Shown piece after piece: positions 213-9,772 of a stretch of 43,876 nt of DNA. The notes under the pieces were generated by a model. It searched no databases. It saw nothing but the letters and a program-made list of their open reading frames with translations, and was not told where the DNA came from. The stretch is from a virus (taxonomy: Duplodnaviria > Heunggongvirae > Uroviricota > Caudoviricetes), in the IMG/VR virus record IMGVR_UViG_3300037510_000012, positions 85,267-129,142 of that record. One strand, given 5' to 3'. A program made the translations under genes and the position numbers. Within the stretch, counting starts at the first letter, position 1. Each line of letters opens with the position of its first letter.

Positions 213-227
213 GCAGTACGAGGGGGG

Positions 228-257
228 TTGACTCTGACCCCCAAGCTTTGGTAAGGT
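228..257 (+). promoter_or_regulatory. sigma70/HrdB-type promoter
   Basis: TTGACT 228-233, 18 bp spacer, TAAGGT 252-257, upstream of RBS AGGGAG. Confidence 0.65.
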
Positions 258-276
258 TGTCCCACAACGAAGGGAG

Positions 277-693
277 ATGGACATGGAGTCCACGGAAGGT
301 TACAAGCTAGCTCTGTCTAAGCACGCAAGGGAACAGCTCATTAAGAAGACTGGTACCATGGGTATCACGCGTGCTGAGCAGGCATTTGAGACCCCGGATA
401 AGATTTATCCGAACAAGAAGTATCAGGGTCAGTTCCGGATTGTTGGTAAGGGTCTTTGCCTTATCGGACGTCCTACTGCAAATGGTCTTTTCAGGGTCTT
501 TACGGTTTATGAGGATGGGGTTATGACTCCGCCGCGCCCCGACCAGCTTGGCACTCCTGAGGGAGACGCTTATGCTGAGCTTTATCGTAAGGCTCAGCAG
601 ACCGGAAAGGTTGCGCGAAACAACGAGTATTACCCTCGCGCTAAGAAGCGGCGTCAGGCTCCCCGTGACGTACGTCACACTTACATTCGATAA
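277..693 (+). CDS. hypothetical protein; N-terminal SKHAREQL motif weakly reminiscent of DUF4258/RelE-like RNase fold
   Basis: 138 aa ORF after promoter and RBS; fold assignment is a motif-level impression only. Confidence 0.75.
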   Translation: MDMESTEGYKLALSKHAREQLIKKTGTMGITRAEQAFETPDKIYPNKKYQGQFRIVGKGLCLIGRPTANGLFRVFTVYEDGVMTPPRPDQLGTPEGDAYAELYRKAQQTGKVARNNEYYPRAKKRRQAPRDVRHTYIR

Positions 694-720
694 TTGAATA
701 TGTGATACCCTAGTGAAATC

Positions 721-746
721 CGCCGCCCTCAATTCCGGGGGCGGCG
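721..746 (+). terminator. GC-rich stem-loop (terminator-like)
   Basis: CGCCGCCCTC 721-730 / GGGGGCGGCG 737-746, intergenic; AAACTT variant follows at 753-758. Confidence 0.5.
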
Positions 747-771
747 CGTAATAAACTTAGGAGATTTAAAT

Positions 772-1239
772 ATGTATAAGAAGACTGCGGTAATCGGAAC
801 GCTTCTTGCTTCATCTATTGTAATGGCTATTCCGGCAAATGCCGAAGCTGCTACGATTCAGGATAAGGCAGCAAGTGTAGCTAAGGCCCAAATTGGTGAC
901 CCTTACAAGTGGGGAGCCAAGGGACCGAATGCATTCGATTGCTCCGGACTTGCCTGGTACTCATTCTATAAGGCTGGAAAGAATTGGAGTTACAAGCCTA
1001 CAAATAGCATGAGGAAGTATCAGACGAATGACATTACGGTAAGTCAGCGAAAGGTTGGAGACCTTATCTTCTTCCGTCGTAAGGGTTCGTCTGATTGGAG
1101 CCATGTTGGAATCTACGTTGGTAGTGGATACATGGTTAATGCGGTAAATGGTAACACGTACAAGGGTGTTCGCAAGGGTAAGGTAGTTGATGGATACTGG
1201 AACAAGTATTACGTCGCTGACTACCGCCGCGTAAAGTAA
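772..1239 (+). CDS. secreted NlpC/P60 peptidoglycan endopeptidase
   Basis: signal peptide (..PANAEA), GDPYKWGAKGPNAFDCSGL catalytic Cys motif, GDLIFF, HVGIYVG catalytic His. Confidence 0.92.
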   Translation: MYKKTAVIGTLLASSIVMAIPANAEAATIQDKAASVAKAQIGDPYKWGAKGPNAFDCSGLAWYSFYKAGKNWSYKPTNSMRKYQTNDITVSQRKVGDLIFFRRKGSSDWSHVGIYVGSGYMVNAVNGNTYKGVRKGKVVDGYWNKYYVADYRRVK

Positions 1240-1312
1240 GACCTGAAAATCAGAAATACGCGGGGTGTTTTCCCTTGACACCCCGCAAGCTTGTAACACA
1301 AAAAGGAGAAGC

Positions 1313-1462
1313 ATGACTTTCACTGGTATTGTTTTCTTTGTGCTGGCATTCATCTGTGGTCTCTTCTCTATGGAGACTGAATGGCTAGCTAATGTTGCAG
1401 TGTTTTTCTTCGGTTGGTCTGTCGCGTTCATCATGCTTGGCATGGTACCCAAGAGGGGTTGA
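1313..1462 (+). CDS. small two-TM membrane protein
   Basis: RBS AGGAG at ~1303, ATG 1313, two hydrophobic segments. Confidence 0.75.
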   Translation: MTFTGIVFFVLAFICGLFSMETEWLANVAVFFFGWSVAFIMLGMVPKRG

Positions 1463-1487
1463 CACAGACCTCAGAGCAAGGTAAGTT
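1459..1487 (+). promoter_or_regulatory. sigma70/HrdB-type promoter
   Basis: TTGACA 1459-1464, 17 bp, TAAGTT 1482-1487; spacer resembles that of the 6977 promoter (TTGACACAGAC). Confidence 0.75.
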
Positions 1488-1539
1488 AGTTCCTGTCAGA
1501 GCGGGTCACCCGCATCGAACATAGAAGGAGAAACAACAA

Positions 1540-1851
1540 ATGCCCAAGCTCCGTGCGAAGAACGACCGTAGCGGTATCGCTGACCTTGGTGCTCACCACT
1601 CGTACAAGGCTCCGCGCATTCCCAACCCTCGCGTTTCCACTGAGGACTTCTGCGCTGACCACCACAGGCTTCAGGTGGCTCTTAGCCACAACCAGGTCAC
1701 CGTGCGTCTTGCAGGAAAGGCCCTTGTTCGTCGTCAGAACACTGAGAACATCGAAAAGCTGAAGGCTGCTAAGGCGAACGTGCAGGTAACGAAGGAAATG
1801 ATTTTCGAGCACATCACGAATTGTGGTCAGTGTTCTTCGATTTCCGTCTGA
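1540..1851 (+). CDS. hypothetical protein
   Basis: RBS AAGGAG, 103 aa, phage-like codon usage, C-terminal CxxC. Confidence 0.8.
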   Translation: MPKLRAKNDRSGIADLGAHHSYKAPRIPNPRVSTEDFCADHHRLQVALSHNQVTVRLAGKALVRRQNTENIEKLKAAKANVQVTKEMIFEHITNCGQCSSISV

Positions 1852-1899
1852 GAAACCAGGCCCGAAAGGGCCAAGCTTCCACAACAAAAGGAGATTGCA

Positions 1900-7883: not shown

Positions 7884-7897
7884 GAGGACTAGCAACC

Positions 7898-8086
7898 ATG
7901 ATGATTCCCTTCCCCCGACTGCCTGAGACCGATGGCAACAAGTGCGCCGAGAGCGGCTGTGATGGCTTCTACCAGCCTTACAGCGATGGGTCCTTCTCCT
8001 GCTACCAGGGACACCGTTCTAGCGTCTCTATGGACGACGTAGAGATTGAGGGTTGGGTGCTTGTGCCTGACCGTGGTGAGTGCTAA
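7898..8086 (+). CDS. small Cys-rich (zinc-ribbon-like) protein
   Basis: RBS GAGGA; C-x4-C ... C-x3-H. Confidence 0.7.
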   Translation: MMIPFPRLPETDGNKCAESGCDGFYQPYSDGSFSCYQGHRSSVSMDDVEIEGWVLVPDRGEC

Positions 8087-8142
8087 GGTTGTTCCAACGG
8101 CGGGGGCCGAAAGGTCCCCGCAAGCTTCCCTAAGGAGGGGTT

Positions 8143-8376
8143 ATGCAGTACAACATCACTGAGCTTATGCCCAAGCAATACATGGAAGACCCGCAAGACC
8201 TTGAGTTTGTTGCTGAGATTGAGGATGATTTCATTCCTCGCATCGGTGATAACCTGGTCTATAACAAGGCAGAGTATCGTGTCGCTGATGTTGAGCGCAA
8301 CCTTGACACTCGAACCACCATCGTGTACGTTAAGACTACTCCGCAAGAGAATGACTTTCTGTACGAAGACTGCTGA
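8143..8376 (+). CDS. hypothetical protein
   Basis: RBS AAGGAGG; FIPRIGD motif seen in small phage beta-barrel proteins. Confidence 0.8.
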   Translation: MQYNITELMPKQYMEDPQDLEFVAEIEDDFIPRIGDNLVYNKAEYRVADVERNLDTRTTIVYVKTTPQENDFLYEDC

Positions 8377-8438
8377 AATTCCGGGGGGTTCGTAAATGAA
8401 CCCCCAAGCTTCCGACTATCTAACTAAGGAATAGAGAA

Positions 8439-8939
8439 ATGGTTGGTAATGAAGAGGAAGCTCGCATTGTAGCCGAGTGGAATTTCGAAGAGTGGGACGA
8501 TTACGAATACGTTCCGCCTAAGGGATTTGAGTATCTTGGTGAGGGTGCTAGCAGAGTTGCACTCCGTAGCATGAAAACGGGGATTGTTTACAAGCGACAC
8601 TACTACCCCGAAAGCAAGGAAAACGAATGGGAATACATCAATATTCAGAGAATTAAGAAGATTCCCATTAAGGGATGGAGAGTCCCTGATGCCAGTCTGT
8701 TCAAGGTTGGCAATGAACAGGTTATCGCAATGGAATTTGTTCAGGGCGGTATGGATGTTTATTGTCAGCGTTCATACAGGTCATGGGACAGACCTTGCAA
8801 TTGTGGTAAGCCTTCCGGTTGTTGTTCTGCTGAGGCATGGGAGCAGCCTGAAGGAATGTGGGGAATTGAGGATATTCACGTCGGCAATATCGTAATCGAT
8901 GATGAAGGAATCAGAGTCCTCATTGACATTGCCTCTTGA
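8439..8939 (+). CDS. protein-kinase-like (Ser/Thr kinase superfamily) protein with Cys-rich insert
   Basis: YLGEGASRVA Gly loop, IVYK lysine, NEWE, IAMEFV hinge, DIHVGNI catalytic loop, LIDIA. Confidence 0.8.
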   Translation: MVGNEEEARIVAEWNFEEWDDYEYVPPKGFEYLGEGASRVALRSMKTGIVYKRHYYPESKENEWEYINIQRIKKIPIKGWRVPDASLFKVGNEQVIAMEFVQGGMDVYCQRSYRSWDRPCNCGKPSGCCSAEAWEQPEGMWGIEDIHVGNIVIDDEGIRVLIDIAS

Positions 8940-9133
8940 CTCATCTGCTCAGTCATGATAGGCTGAGCAAGCTCGAACAAAGGAGAAACAAATTGTCTAA
9001 GCGTCAGATGCCCAAGCCTCGTAACCCCCGAATGAACAAGACGATGGAATATCGCAAGGGCTCTGGTGATTTCCCGACAATGAGTAAGCCCAAGTACAGC
9101 CGTAAGGCAAAGTACATTCGAAAGGAAATGTGA
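8936..9133 (+). CDS. small basic protein
   Basis: TTGA overlap; K/R-rich 65 aa; exact start uncertain. Confidence 0.6.
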   Translation: MTHLLSHDRLSKLEQRRNKLSKRQMPKPRNPRMNKTMEYRKGSGDFPTMSKPKYSRKAKYIRKEM

Positions 9134-9186
9134 TGGATAACGGACACTGCTGGTGTGGTGCTGAGTATCCTTGCCTCAAGCACTGA
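9133..9186 (+). CDS. possible 17 aa Cys/His micro-peptide
   Basis: TGATG coupling, AAGGAA 5' of start; MDNGHCWCGAEYPCLKH. Confidence 0.4.
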   Translation: MDNGHCWCGAEYPCLKH

Positions 9187-9189
9187 GGG

Positions 9190-9218
9190 TTGACACCACA
9201 GAGCAGCTAGGGTAAGGT
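9190..9218 (+). promoter_or_regulatory. sigma70/HrdB-type promoter
   Basis: TTGACA 9190-9195, 17 bp, TAAGGT 9213-9218. Confidence 0.75.
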
Positions 9219-9306
9219 TGTAGTCACAAGGGCGGGTGAGGAAAGCCAAACCCGCCAAGCTAGGAGGCACCAACGGGTCCTCCGAAATATTCTAGGGAGA
9301 ATAGAT

Positions 9307-9702
9307 ATGCGTAAGCTGCACTTCACTGACCCTGAGCTTAAGAACTTCGCTCTTCGTGGCAAGAATGCTGTGGTTGGCGGTATGGAGTTGCTTCACGTCC
9401 ACATCCGTACCAATTCCGCGCGGGTTGGCTCCTACGCTGAGCGTGTGGACAGTCTCACCAAGGTCTATGACCTTCCGTACAACGTTCTGTACCACATGAC
9501 CACTGGTGGACACACTGAGGACACTACCCCGAAGCCTGTATTCTTCTACAAGCGTGACTTTGACGGTAAGATTGTCCACCGACACCTTGCCGATTCCGGT
9601 GTGGTGCCTTACACTCATCGTAACGGCTCGTTCCTGAACGACAGCAACTTCCTTCTCGACCTGGTGGCTCTGAAGGATGCTGGGATTGAGGTTGACTACT
9701 GA
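9307..9702 (+). CDS. hypothetical protein
   Basis: RBS GGGAG; 131 aa; strongly biased codon usage. Confidence 0.85.
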   Translation: MRKLHFTDPELKNFALRGKNAVVGGMELLHVHIRTNSARVGSYAERVDSLTKVYDLPYNVLYHMTTGGHTEDTTPKPVFFYKRDFDGKIVHRHLADSGVVPYTHRNGSFLNDSNFLLDLVALKDAGIEVDY

Positions 9703-9772
9703 GCCTCACGCGGGTTATGATTAACCCGCAAGCTTGCAAGACCTAATCATAAACCAAACGAAGGGTATCGTA

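What the first reader, a model, noticed from the sequence alone, without database searches (positions are those of the whole stretch)
223..9735. Sixteen variable hairpins that all end in AAGCT(T/A): a structure-plus-hexamer element punctuating the early region
Seen: many early intergenic gaps hold a GC-rich stem of 4-11 bp whose sequence differs each time (e.g. GGCCC-GAAA-GGGCC 1859-1872, GCCCGGA-TT-TCCGGGC 3160-3175, GGCGGGGGTT..AACCCCCGCC 4875-4900, GCGGGTTA..TAACCCGC 9710-9729). Each is followed within 0-3 nt by AAGCTT (13 copies) or AAGCTA (2 copies), usually 5-25 nt before the next RBS. A 16th copy lies on the - strand between two tRNA-Thr genes (21098-21140), oriented with local transcription. 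At 223, 6038 and 6595 the hairpin overlaps a TTGAC -35 box. At 6624 TAAGCT is itself the -10, but at 243 and 6061 AAGCTT sits in the spacer before a separate -10. Inference: conserved structure with free stem sequence points to recognition of a fold, not a DNA operator. Options are a phage-controlled conditional terminator, an RNA processing/stabilising site, or a hairpin-plus-(C/T)AAGCT promoter, loosely analogous to coliphage N4 hairpin promoters. I know of no description of this element.
Basis: partly seen in the sequence, partly recalled or inferred. Interest (0 to 1): 0.82.

Follow-up and report, generated by a model that had tools for sequence, protein, structure and literature searches.

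The report
Gene-end RNA hairpin plus AAGCU signal
In this Streptomyces phage and its whole subfamily, about 45 genes end in a stable RNA hairpin followed at once by the fixed letters AAGCU(U); this undescribed signal most likely marks where long phage messages are cut and their new ends protected, but no RNA data were available to show it.

Summary
All 15 listed + strand copies and the - strand copy exist; I add one AAGCTC variant (8947-8974). The element is not confined to 223-9735: the 129-kb genome holds about 45 copies along 74 kb of + strand non-structural genes and none in the structural genes.

The hairpin is read as RNA on the coding strand, as shown by GNRA/UUCG loops, G.U pairs and compensatory changes between phages. 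Its basal pair is G-C, and AAGCU follows with no gap. It starts about 7 nt after a stop codon.

It occurs in five genera of Loccivirinae. Two Boydwoodruffvirinae phages of the same hosts lack it. Where a tRNA gene follows, the same hairpins abut the tRNA 5' end and carry no AAGCU.

Best reading (about 45%): a cut site plus a protective 3' hairpin. A leaky or factor-dependent terminator is the main rival. The promoter (N4-like) reading is rejected.

I found no published description. This scan had already noted the element on this genome and on related phage genomes. The tool for finding RNA sequencing runs was closed.

The parts
223..248 (+). Hairpin (223-242) + AAGCTT; the hairpin holds the -35 TTGACT, and AAGCTT lies in the spacer before TAAGGT
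   Evidence: dG -13.3
1260..1292 (+). Hairpin + AAGCTT, 20 nt after the stop of the peptidase-like gene
   Evidence: dG -20.1; positional orthologues covary
1859..1878 (+). GGCCC-GAAA-GGGCC hairpin + AAGCTT, 7 nt after a stop
2094..2119 (+). Hairpin (G.U basal pair) + AAGCTT, 5 nt after a stop
3160..3181 (+). Hairpin + AAGCTT, 9 nt after a stop
4099..4131 (+). 11-bp hairpin + AAGCTT after the metallophosphoesterase gene; several compensatory changes in Comrade, Gilson and Faust
4350..4367 (+). GCCC-GAAA-GGGC hairpin + AAGCTT before the SprT-like gene
4875..4906 (+). 10-bp hairpin + AAGCTT
6038..6066 (+). Hairpin holding the -35 TTGACA + AAGCTT in the spacer before TAGACT; stems covary in four relatives
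6594..6630 (+). 12-bp hairpin holding the -35 TTGACA, a 2-nt gap, then AAGCTA; TAAGCT doubles as the -10
7022..7064 (+). Hairpin + AAGCTT downstream of promoter 6977-7005 and ahead of an ORF-free structured region, so the element is not tied to a following ORF
8100..8127 (+). 9-bp GAAA hairpin + AAGCTT; seven different stems at this position in relatives
8384..8411 (+). Hairpin + AAGCTT, 7 nt after a stop
8947..8974 (+).
9231..9262 (+). Hairpin + AAGCTA downstream of promoter 9190
9710..9735 (+). Hairpin + AAGCTT, 7 nt after a stop
21098..21140 (-). - strand copy between two tRNA-Thr genes: 9-bp stem, conserved 19-nt pyrimidine loop, then AAGCTT; the stem covaries with Francob

Best explanation
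The element is an RNA signal at gene ends in long polycistronic early and middle transcripts made by the host RNA polymerase. The polymerase mostly reads through it. An endoribonuclease then cuts in or next to the single-stranded AAGCU. The upstream message is left ending in a very stable GNRA/UUCG hairpin with a tail of a few nucleotides, which blocks 3' exonucleases. The downstream message starts a short way before its ribosome-binding site. Each gene or small gene block thus becomes its own stabilised mRNA.

Shown here: the anatomy, the strand, the RNA-level selection, the position after stop codons, the restriction to one phage lineage, and the replacement of AAGCU by a tRNA 5' end.

Inferred: that a cut happens, where it falls, and which enzyme makes it. 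Host RNase E is a candidate because AAG|CUU fits the mycobacterial RN|CNU preference. That loose preference cannot explain five invariant letters, so a more specific, possibly phage-encoded, reader is likely.
For: 1. The hairpin is selected as RNA on the coding strand. In seven sequence sets there are 233 elements on the + strand and 34 on the - strand. Tetraloops make up 137 of 233 loops; 66% of them are GNRA or UNCG as read on the + strand, against 2% on the opposite strand. There are 142 G.U pairs against 23 when the other strand is folded.
2. Structure is kept and sequence is not. Between positional orthologues there are 261 two-sided changes and 81 one-sided ones. Mixing arms from different phages breaks 233 of 342 changed pairs.
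3. The junction is precise. There is no gap, the basal pair is G-C in 199 of 233, the letters AAGCU are shared by all copies (the scan selected on AAGCT) and the sixth letter is T in 77%. The tail is unpaired in every fold.
4. It sits at gene ends. The hairpin starts a median of 7 nt after a stop codon, whereas the distance to the next start varies from 9 to more than 40 nt.
5. It must usually be read through. About two thirds of copies have no consensus promoter after them. Six lie in a row between the promoters at window 1459 and 6046. Two lie just downstream of a promoter (7022, 9231).
6. Where a tRNA gene follows, the same kind of hairpin ends 1-5 nt before the tRNA 5' end, which is the RNase P cut site. 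These hairpins carry no AAGCU: 13 of 37 tRNA genes here, 16 of 36 in Francob and 9 of 22 in Annadreamy, against 12% of random places. In a gene-end test, 0 of 17 hairpins before tRNAs carry AAGCU against 70 of 234 others (p = 0.004). A ready-made endonuclease site thus makes AAGCU dispensable.
7. Streptomyces transcripts often end at stable hairpins without a U tract, and such ends show more read-through than U-rich ones (PMC8269248).
8. AAG|CUU fits the mycobacterial RNase E motif RN|CNU (PMC10641625).
Against: No RNA ends were seen.

RNase E specificity is reported as loose apart from C at +1. Here the 'N' positions are invariant and the preferred U at +3 is the most variable letter, so RNase E alone does not account for the motif.

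AAGCU is not specially avoided inside coding sequence. A free-standing AAGCU-specific nuclease would therefore also cut within genes unless it needs the adjacent helix or is kept out by ribosomes.

After the Ro-like gene, Jay2Jay has the same hairpin core followed by UUUGUU. This fits equally well the idea that AAGCU replaces a terminator's U tract.
Confidence: 0.45

Rival explanations
1. It is a terminator or attenuator in which AAGCU(U) takes the place of the U tract. It would be either weak and constitutive, giving graded expression along operons, or dependent on a host or phage factor that switches termination or antitermination on during infection.
For: It has the same place and shape as intrinsic terminators, with the tail abutting the stem as a U tract does. 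After the Ro-like gene, Jay2Jay has the same hairpin core followed by UUUGUU. Several copies stand directly before, or wrap around, a promoter, which is the end of one unit and the start of the next: genome 58416, 79959, 83810 and 84563, and window 223, 6038 and 6594. In Streptomyces, hairpins without a U tract also mark 3' ends.
Against: The phage also uses about ten canonical hairpin+U-tract terminators, so its polymerase reads the normal signal. From my own knowledge, mycobacterial RNA polymerase needs a U tract in vitro (Czyz et al. 2014, not read here). Most copies are followed by genes with no promoter of their own, and two lie just after promoters. Identical hairpins in front of tRNA genes must be read through. 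Nothing in termination chemistry explains an invariant A-A-G-C-U.
Confidence: 0.25
2. It is a docking site for an RNA-binding protein, phage or host, that recognises the helix end plus AAGCU and does not cut. The protein would protect the 3' end, or tune translation or decay of the neighbouring genes.
For: The invariant pentamer at a helix/single-strand junction, together with restriction to one phage subfamily, points to a specific protein reader. The tail is always unpaired.
Against: No candidate RNA-binding protein was identified. The distance to the next ribosome-binding site is variable, which argues against a translational operator. The element also precedes non-coding RNA (7022-7064). 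The omission of AAGCU before tRNAs is explained more directly by a cut site.
Confidence: 0.12
3. It is a DNA-level signal: a seam for exchanging gene cassettes, as with PeSLs or integron attC sites, or a strand-specific nick or priming site read on single-stranded DNA.
For: AAGCTT is a palindrome. 33% of homology breakpoints between this phage and seven relatives fall within 15 nt of an element, against 9% of random positions. At many sites only one flank is shared with a given relative.
Against: The sixth letter is free in 23% of copies, so the palindrome is not required. GNRA/UUCG loops and G.U pairs are specific to the transcribed sense. Six conserved bases are too few for homologous exchange. 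Breakpoints are expected in any intergenic gap, and the elements fill most gaps. The structural genes also need replication and recombination, yet they have none.
Confidence: 0.08
4. It is a hairpin promoter read by a special polymerase or sigma factor, as in coliphage N4.
For: Several hairpins overlap sigma-70-type promoters.
Against: In those cases an ordinary TTGACA-N17/18-TANNNT promoter is present, and AAGCTT sits at different places within it. Most copies have no promoter. Only 14 of 233 loops are 3 nt long. No phage RNA polymerase gene is annotated in Francob or found here.
Confidence: 0.03

Closest known systems
Intercistronic processing-and-stabilisation hairpins, such as the RNase III sites between the early genes of coliphage T7 (from general knowledge)
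   Same: Hairpins stand between genes of long early transcripts. After cutting, the upstream message ends in a protective hairpin.
   Different: T7 sites are long irregular duplexes cut within the stem by RNase III. Here the stems are 4-12 bp, free in sequence, and followed by an invariant single-stranded AAGCU.
Canonical intrinsic terminators (GC hairpin + U tract)
   Same: A GC-rich tetraloop hairpin lies a few nt after the stop codon, with the tail abutting the stem. After the Ro-like gene, Jay2Jay has a U-rich tail (UUUGUU) on the same hairpin core.
   Different: There is no U tract; AAGCU(U) followed by C or G stands in its place. True U-tract terminators coexist in the same genome.
PeSL composite promoter-terminator cassettes of T4-type phages (PMC4122927, PMC2839356)
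   Same: A stem-loop is fused to an early sigma-70-type promoter between small variable genes, and these sites coincide with gene-swap boundaries. About 8 of the 45 copies here have this build.
   Different: PeSLs are conserved in sequence and always carry the promoter. Here the stems differ in every copy, most copies have no promoter, and the conserved part is a pentamer.
T4 RegB (from general knowledge) and MqsR (PMC9636575, PMC2791442): sequence-specific mRNA endonucleases
   Same: A short fixed word in mRNA is the target. RegB cuts GGAG in early intergenic regions. MqsR has a RelE fold and cuts at GC(U), a core contained in AAGCU.
   Different: No nuclease has been tied to AAGCU. The required adjacent helix has no counterpart in those systems.
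tRNA punctuation of polycistronic transcripts (mitochondrial model, from general knowledge)
   Same: In this phage, tRNA genes sit between ORFs, and gene-end hairpins abut their 5' ends. AAGCU appears to do at ORF-ORF junctions what the tRNA does at ORF-tRNA junctions.

Membership tests
Intrinsic (Rho-independent) terminator | Stable GC-rich hairpin close to the gene end | tested here: met
   dG -8 to -23 kcal/mol; start a median of 7 nt after the stop
Intrinsic (Rho-independent) terminator | U tract directly after the stem | tested here: not met
   The tail is AAGCU(U) followed mostly by C or G. Separate U-tract terminators exist in the genome.
Intrinsic (Rho-independent) terminator | Release of RNA polymerase at the site | not testable with these tools
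N4-type hairpin promoter | Phage-encoded RNA polymerase that reads DNA hairpins | tested here: inconclusive
   No RNA polymerase is annotated in Francob. PF00940 gave no match, but the control genomes were silent too.
N4-type hairpin promoter | Uniform hairpin with a 5-7 bp stem and a 3-nt loop (from my own knowledge of N4) | tested here: not met
   Loop lengths: 4 nt in 137 and 3 nt in 14 of 233; stems 4-12 bp
N4-type hairpin promoter | Fixed position relative to the transcription start | tested here: not met
   AAGCTT lies in the spacer, in the -10, over the -35, or without any promoter
PeSL cassette | Early promoter fused to a stem-loop | tested here: not met
   True for only about 8 of 45 copies
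PeSL cassette | Sequence conserved among copies, allowing homologous exchange | tested here: not met
   Stems differ in every copy; only C|AAGCU(U) is shared
PeSL cassette | Located at boundaries of gene insertions, deletions or replacements | tested here: inconclusive
   33% of homology breakpoints lie within 15 nt, against 9% at random, but the elements fill most intergenic gaps
Actinobacterial RNase E site (RN|CNU) | Single-stranded R-N-C-N-U context | tested here: met
   AAG|CUU fits; the tail is unpaired in all folds
Actinobacterial RNase E site (RN|CNU) | The motif's degeneracy accounts for the conservation seen | tested here: not met
   The N positions (G3, U5) and A1 are invariant, while the preferred U at +3 is the most variable letter at 77%
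Actinobacterial RNase E site (RN|CNU) | Cleavage by RNase E | not testable with these tools
   Needs an enzyme assay or RNase E depletion
RNase III processing site (T7 type) | About 20 bp of duplex RNA | tested here: not met
   Stems are 4-12 bp
REP-type repeated extragenic palindrome | Many near-identical copies of one palindrome | tested here: not met
   Almost every stem is different

The most novel reading that the evidence does not exclude
The element and a phage gene form a self-contained mRNA punctuation system. The first gene after the strong promoter at 223 (window 277-693) has a RelE/ParE-superfamily fold and is found in the same 38-record clade that has the close portal. It would be, or would guide, an endoribonuclease specific for AAGCU next to a helix. 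It would dice the phage's own long transcripts into hairpin-capped messages, as the RelE-fold enzyme MqsR cuts at GC(U).
Probability: 0.12. Interest if true: 0.85.

Novelty: new variant of a known kind. Interest (0 to 1): 0.62.

Why it matters
Little is known about how large lytic actinophages organise transcription and mRNA decay, and the rules for 3'-end formation in high-GC actinobacteria are still debated.

A signal made of a free-sequence helix plus an invariant pentamer, used about 45 times per genome across a whole phage subfamily, points to a reader of unusual specificity that has not been identified. Finding it would give a new RNA-processing or termination mechanism.

It could also serve as a compact, portable part for insulating genes in Streptomyces synthetic operons, and as a marker for annotating gene ends in these phages.

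Tried and rejected
- Rfam at gathering thresholds found only tRNAs in the window.
- Literature searches found no description of the element: cluster BE/BK phages, AAGCTT plus stem-loop, Loccivirinae, and the Ankus paper.
- AAGCTT as a promoter element: rejected, because its position relative to -35/-10 is not fixed and most copies lack a promoter.
- Avoidance of AAGCU in coding sequence as a sign of a free nuclease: not seen. The AAGCT/AGCTT asymmetry is as strong in the structural genes, which have no elements.
- Systematic comparison of gene ends with Jay2Jay orthologues: only 28 pairs, with a noisy classification. Only the site after the Ro-like gene gave a clean case of the same hairpin core with a U-rich tail (UUUGUU) in place of AAGCUU.
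- Pfam and PHROGs on ten small proteins of 1-10 kb gave no RNA-related family. The protein-atlas search gave only a weak lead to DUF4258.
- A methylase link: the phage's small C5-cytosine methylase (18323-18970) could in principle act on AGCT, but nothing ties it to the element.
- tRNA-end mimicry (G-C basal pair plus A as discriminator): considered and dropped. Stems are as short as 4-5 bp, and real tRNA trailers here are U-rich, not AGCU.
- PF00940 search of the genome: no match, but the controls were silent as well.

Full report
**What the window is.** The window is the last 43,876 bp of a 129,142-bp phage record. Its first 10 kb is 80-86% identical to Streptomyces phages Francob, Patelgo, Moab, Gilson and Comrade. 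These belong to Stanwilliamsviridae, subfamily Loccivirinae. Their genomes are about 128-130 kb with roughly 35-40 tRNA genes and a tmRNA. Window 1-10,000 holds small + strand genes near the right end of the genome. Structural genes start near 22 kb in the window and continue at the start of the record.

**Check of the observation.**
- Each hairpin folds as drawn, with dG from -8.4 to -23.3 kcal/mol, and AAGCU(U) stays unpaired.
- I add one variant, hairpin + AAGCTC at 8947-8974.
- AAGCTT occurs 31 times in the window against 14.25 +/- 3.45 in shuffles.
- I listed all stems of at least 5 bp without reference to the motif and asked which hexamer follows them. AAGCTT is first by far: 25 of 411 + strand hairpins in the genome and 20 of the 203 strongest hairpins. 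The next unrelated hexamer scores 2-3, and nothing comparable appears on the - strand.
- The gap between stem and AAGCT is zero in nearly all copies.

**Extent.**
- The element is not special to 223-9735. A stricter scan finds about 45 copies on the + strand between genome positions 21.5 and 95 kb. This covers replication, nucleotide-metabolism, tRNA-region and small-gene blocks. Nine chance-level hits fall on the - strand.
- None lies in the structural genes.
- None lies in the right arm, window 10-17 kb.
- The genome also holds about ten ordinary hairpin + U-tract terminators. Examples are window 10242, 26448, 34088 and 40354, and genome 22324, 54570, 66267, 75451 and 83754.

**Anatomy.** I pooled 233 copies from this genome, Francob, Annadreamy, Ankus, Faust, Comrade and Patelgo.
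- Loops are 4 nt in 137 copies. Of these, 59 are GNRA and 32 UNCG, chiefly GAAA and UUCG. Read on the opposite strand, only 3 of 137 would qualify.
- Stems contain 142 G.U pairs; folding the opposite strand gives 23.
- The basal pair is 5'-G...C-3' in 199 of 233 copies and C...G in only 6.
- The conserved word is therefore C|AAGCU. The sixth letter is U in 77% of copies, and C or G is commonest at positions 7-8.
- The hairpin begins a median of 7 nt after the stop codon of the preceding ORF, mostly 4-10 nt. The distance from AAGCU to the next start codon ranges from 9 to more than 40 nt.
- Some copies are followed by no ORF at all, for example 7022-7064 ahead of a 500-nt ORF-free region.

**Comparative evidence.**
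- At the same positions in relatives the hairpin is kept but its sequence changes. At window 8100 there are seven different stems, and at 4099 and 6038 four each.
- Counting from the base of the stem, pairs of positional orthologues differ on both sides at 261 paired positions and on one side at 81. Joining the 5' arm of one phage to the 3' arm of another breaks 233 of 342 changed pairs.
- Some of these may be replacements by recombination rather than point changes. Either way the fold and the pentamer are what is retained.
- The - strand copy between the tRNA-Thr genes also covaries with Francob: GCCGGTCCC/GGGACCGGT against GTCGGCAT/ATGCCGAC. Its loop and AAGCTT are unchanged.

**Distribution.**
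- AAGCT is the top word after hairpins in Gilsonvirus, Faustvirus, Annadreamyvirus, Wakandavirus and the German isolate Ankus (portal 81% identical).
- It is absent from Jay2Jay (Samistivirus) and Karimac (Karimacvirus). These belong to the sister subfamily Boydwoodruffvirinae and infect the same host species. They also have far fewer tetraloop hairpins.
- After the Ro-like gene, Jay2Jay has the same hairpin core (GCCCCTC-UUCG-GAGGGGC) extended by UUUGUU, where this phage has AAGCUU.

**What it is not.** It is not a promoter element.
- The genome is rich in TTGACA-N17/18-TANNNT promoters.
- In about eight elements the -35 lies in the hairpin.
- AAGCTT holds no fixed place in these promoters. 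It sits in the spacer next to the -10 at 243 and 6061, where its last T plus the next G (6061), or the TG that soon follows (243), gives an extended -10. It is the -10 at 6624. It overlaps the -35 at genome 58416. It lies 6 nt upstream of a promoter at 79959.
- About two thirds of copies have no consensus promoter nearby.
- No phage RNA polymerase is annotated in Francob, and PF00940 finds none here, although the control genomes were silent too.
- The loops are not the 3-nt loops of N4 promoters.

**Terminator or processing site?** Four observations argue against an efficient terminator.
1. The phage uses normal U-tract terminators as well.
2. Runs of elements lie between promoters, with genes after each. 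Six lie between window 1459 and 6046.
3. Two elements lie 10-45 nt downstream of strong promoters (7022, 9231).
4. Hairpins of the same kind stand directly in front of tRNA genes and must be read through.

The fourth point is the most telling.
- 13 of 37 tRNA genes here have a small GNRA/UUCG hairpin ending 1-5 nt before the mature 5' end. The figures are 16 of 36 in Francob, 9 of 22 in Annadreamy and 17 of 37 in Jay2Jay, against 12% of random places.
- None of these hairpins carries AAGCU. In a conservative gene-end test the counts are 0 of 17 against 70 of 234 (p = 0.004).
- RNase P cutting at the tRNA 5' end would leave the upstream message ending in hairpin + 1-5 nt.
- At ORF-ORF junctions AAGCU stands in exactly that place. 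The simplest reading is that it supplies the cut which the tRNA supplies elsewhere.
- In Streptomyces clavuligerus, many transcript 3' ends lie at stable hairpins without a U tract, and these show more read-through than U-rich ends (PMC8269248).

**Who reads AAGCU?**
- Mycobacterial RNase E cuts single-stranded RNA 5' of C in the context RN|CNU, and AAG|CUU fits this. The authors stress that the flanking positions matter little (PMC10641625).
- Here the supposedly free positions are invariant, and the preferred U at +3 is the least conserved letter. RNase E may be the catalyst, but it does not explain the motif.
- AAGCU is not specially avoided in coding sequence.
- Restriction to one subfamily, with an unchanged pentamer across five genera, suggests a reader carried by the phage lineage.
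- One candidate, offered only as a lead, is the first gene after the promoter at 223 (277-693). Its model has mean pLDDT 76, with the core above 84. The core, residues 7-84, has a RelE/ParE-superfamily fold. The best match is Z 8.6, rmsd 2.4 A over 73 residues, to M. tuberculosis RelE1, and all top hits are RelE, YoeB, ParE, HigB, YafQ, BrnT or MqsR.
- Homologues occur in 38 phage records. The same number of records has a portal at least 80% identical. No Boydwoodruffvirinae phage appears among the 25 homologue records listed.
- MqsR is a RelE-fold, ribosome-independent RNase that cuts at GC(U) (PMC9636575, PMC2791442), so such specificity has a precedent.
- The co-occurrence amounts to a single evolutionary event, and the fold does not separate an RNase from a ParE-type gyrase poison. 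The weight of this lead is therefore low.

**DNA-level readings.**
- Homology breakpoints with relatives cluster at the elements: 33% lie within 15 nt, against 9% at random. Often only one flank is shared. This recalls PeSL cassettes.
- But the elements occupy most intergenic gaps, only six bases are shared, the palindrome is not obligatory, and the RNA signatures are strand-specific.
- I regard the seam as a by-product of position, not the function.

**Relation to earlier notes of this scan.** The same element was already noted and followed up on the neighbouring window of this genome and on several related genomes. Those follow-ups reached the same leading interpretation. I re-derived the anatomy independently and tested three of their statements:
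- PeSL likeness: true only for a subset of copies.
- Replacement by tRNA genes: confirmed.
- A U tract in sister phages: confirmed at one site.

**Verdict.** This is a real, lineage-wide RNA signal at gene ends that is not described in the papers I searched. The most likely mechanism is endonucleolytic punctuation with hairpin protection.

Noticed in passing
window 277-693 (+): The first gene after the strong promoter at 223 has a predicted RelE/ParE-superfamily toxin fold (Z 8.6 to M. tuberculosis RelE1) and no obvious antitoxin partner. Relatives annotate it as BrnT-like or hypothetical, and it is confined to this phage clade (38 records).
   Followed up: partly
genome-wide, e.g. genome 50013, 55076, 55933, 69482; window 21043-21060 (-): About a third of the tRNA genes are preceded, 1-5 nt before their 5' end, by a small GNRA/UUCG hairpin without AAGCU. 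The same holds in Francob, Annadreamy and the sister-subfamily phage Jay2Jay.
   Followed up: yes
window 21104-21140 (-): The loop of the - strand element, UUUUUCUUCUCCUUUUU, is conserved between this phage and Francob while the stem covaries. It resembles an anti-Shine-Dalgarno stretch.
   Followed up: no
window 721-746 (+): A strong gene-end hairpin (CGCCGCCC...GGGCGGCG, dG about -21) has neither AAGCU nor a U tract after it.
   Followed up: no
window 7065-7600 (+): A promoter-driven region with no ORF and several strong helices follows element 7022-7064. ARAGORN calls a tRNA-His-like gene with anticodon ATG at 7271-7342, which Rfam's tRNA model does not report at its gathering score.
   Followed up: no
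window 5052-5387 (+): A small protein matches Pfam cREC_REC, the cyclic-phosphate processing receiver domain (E 5e-22). This family is linked to RNA repair systems.
   Followed up: no
window 18323-18970 (-): A short (215 aa) C5-cytosine DNA methylase matches only the first 85 positions of the Pfam model. Its target is unknown.
   Followed up: no
window 10000-17000 (+): The right arm has wide intergenic gaps and many strong hairpins of another kind, and no AAGCU elements. A canonical bidirectional terminator at 10242-10275 separates it from the element-bearing block.
   Followed up: no
whole genome, + strand: There are 83 matches to TTGACN-N16-18-TANNNT on the + strand, many of them perfect TTGACA with TAAGGT or TAAGAT. 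They are dense at 38-53 kb, 64-71 kb and 75-95 kb of the genome.
   Followed up: partly
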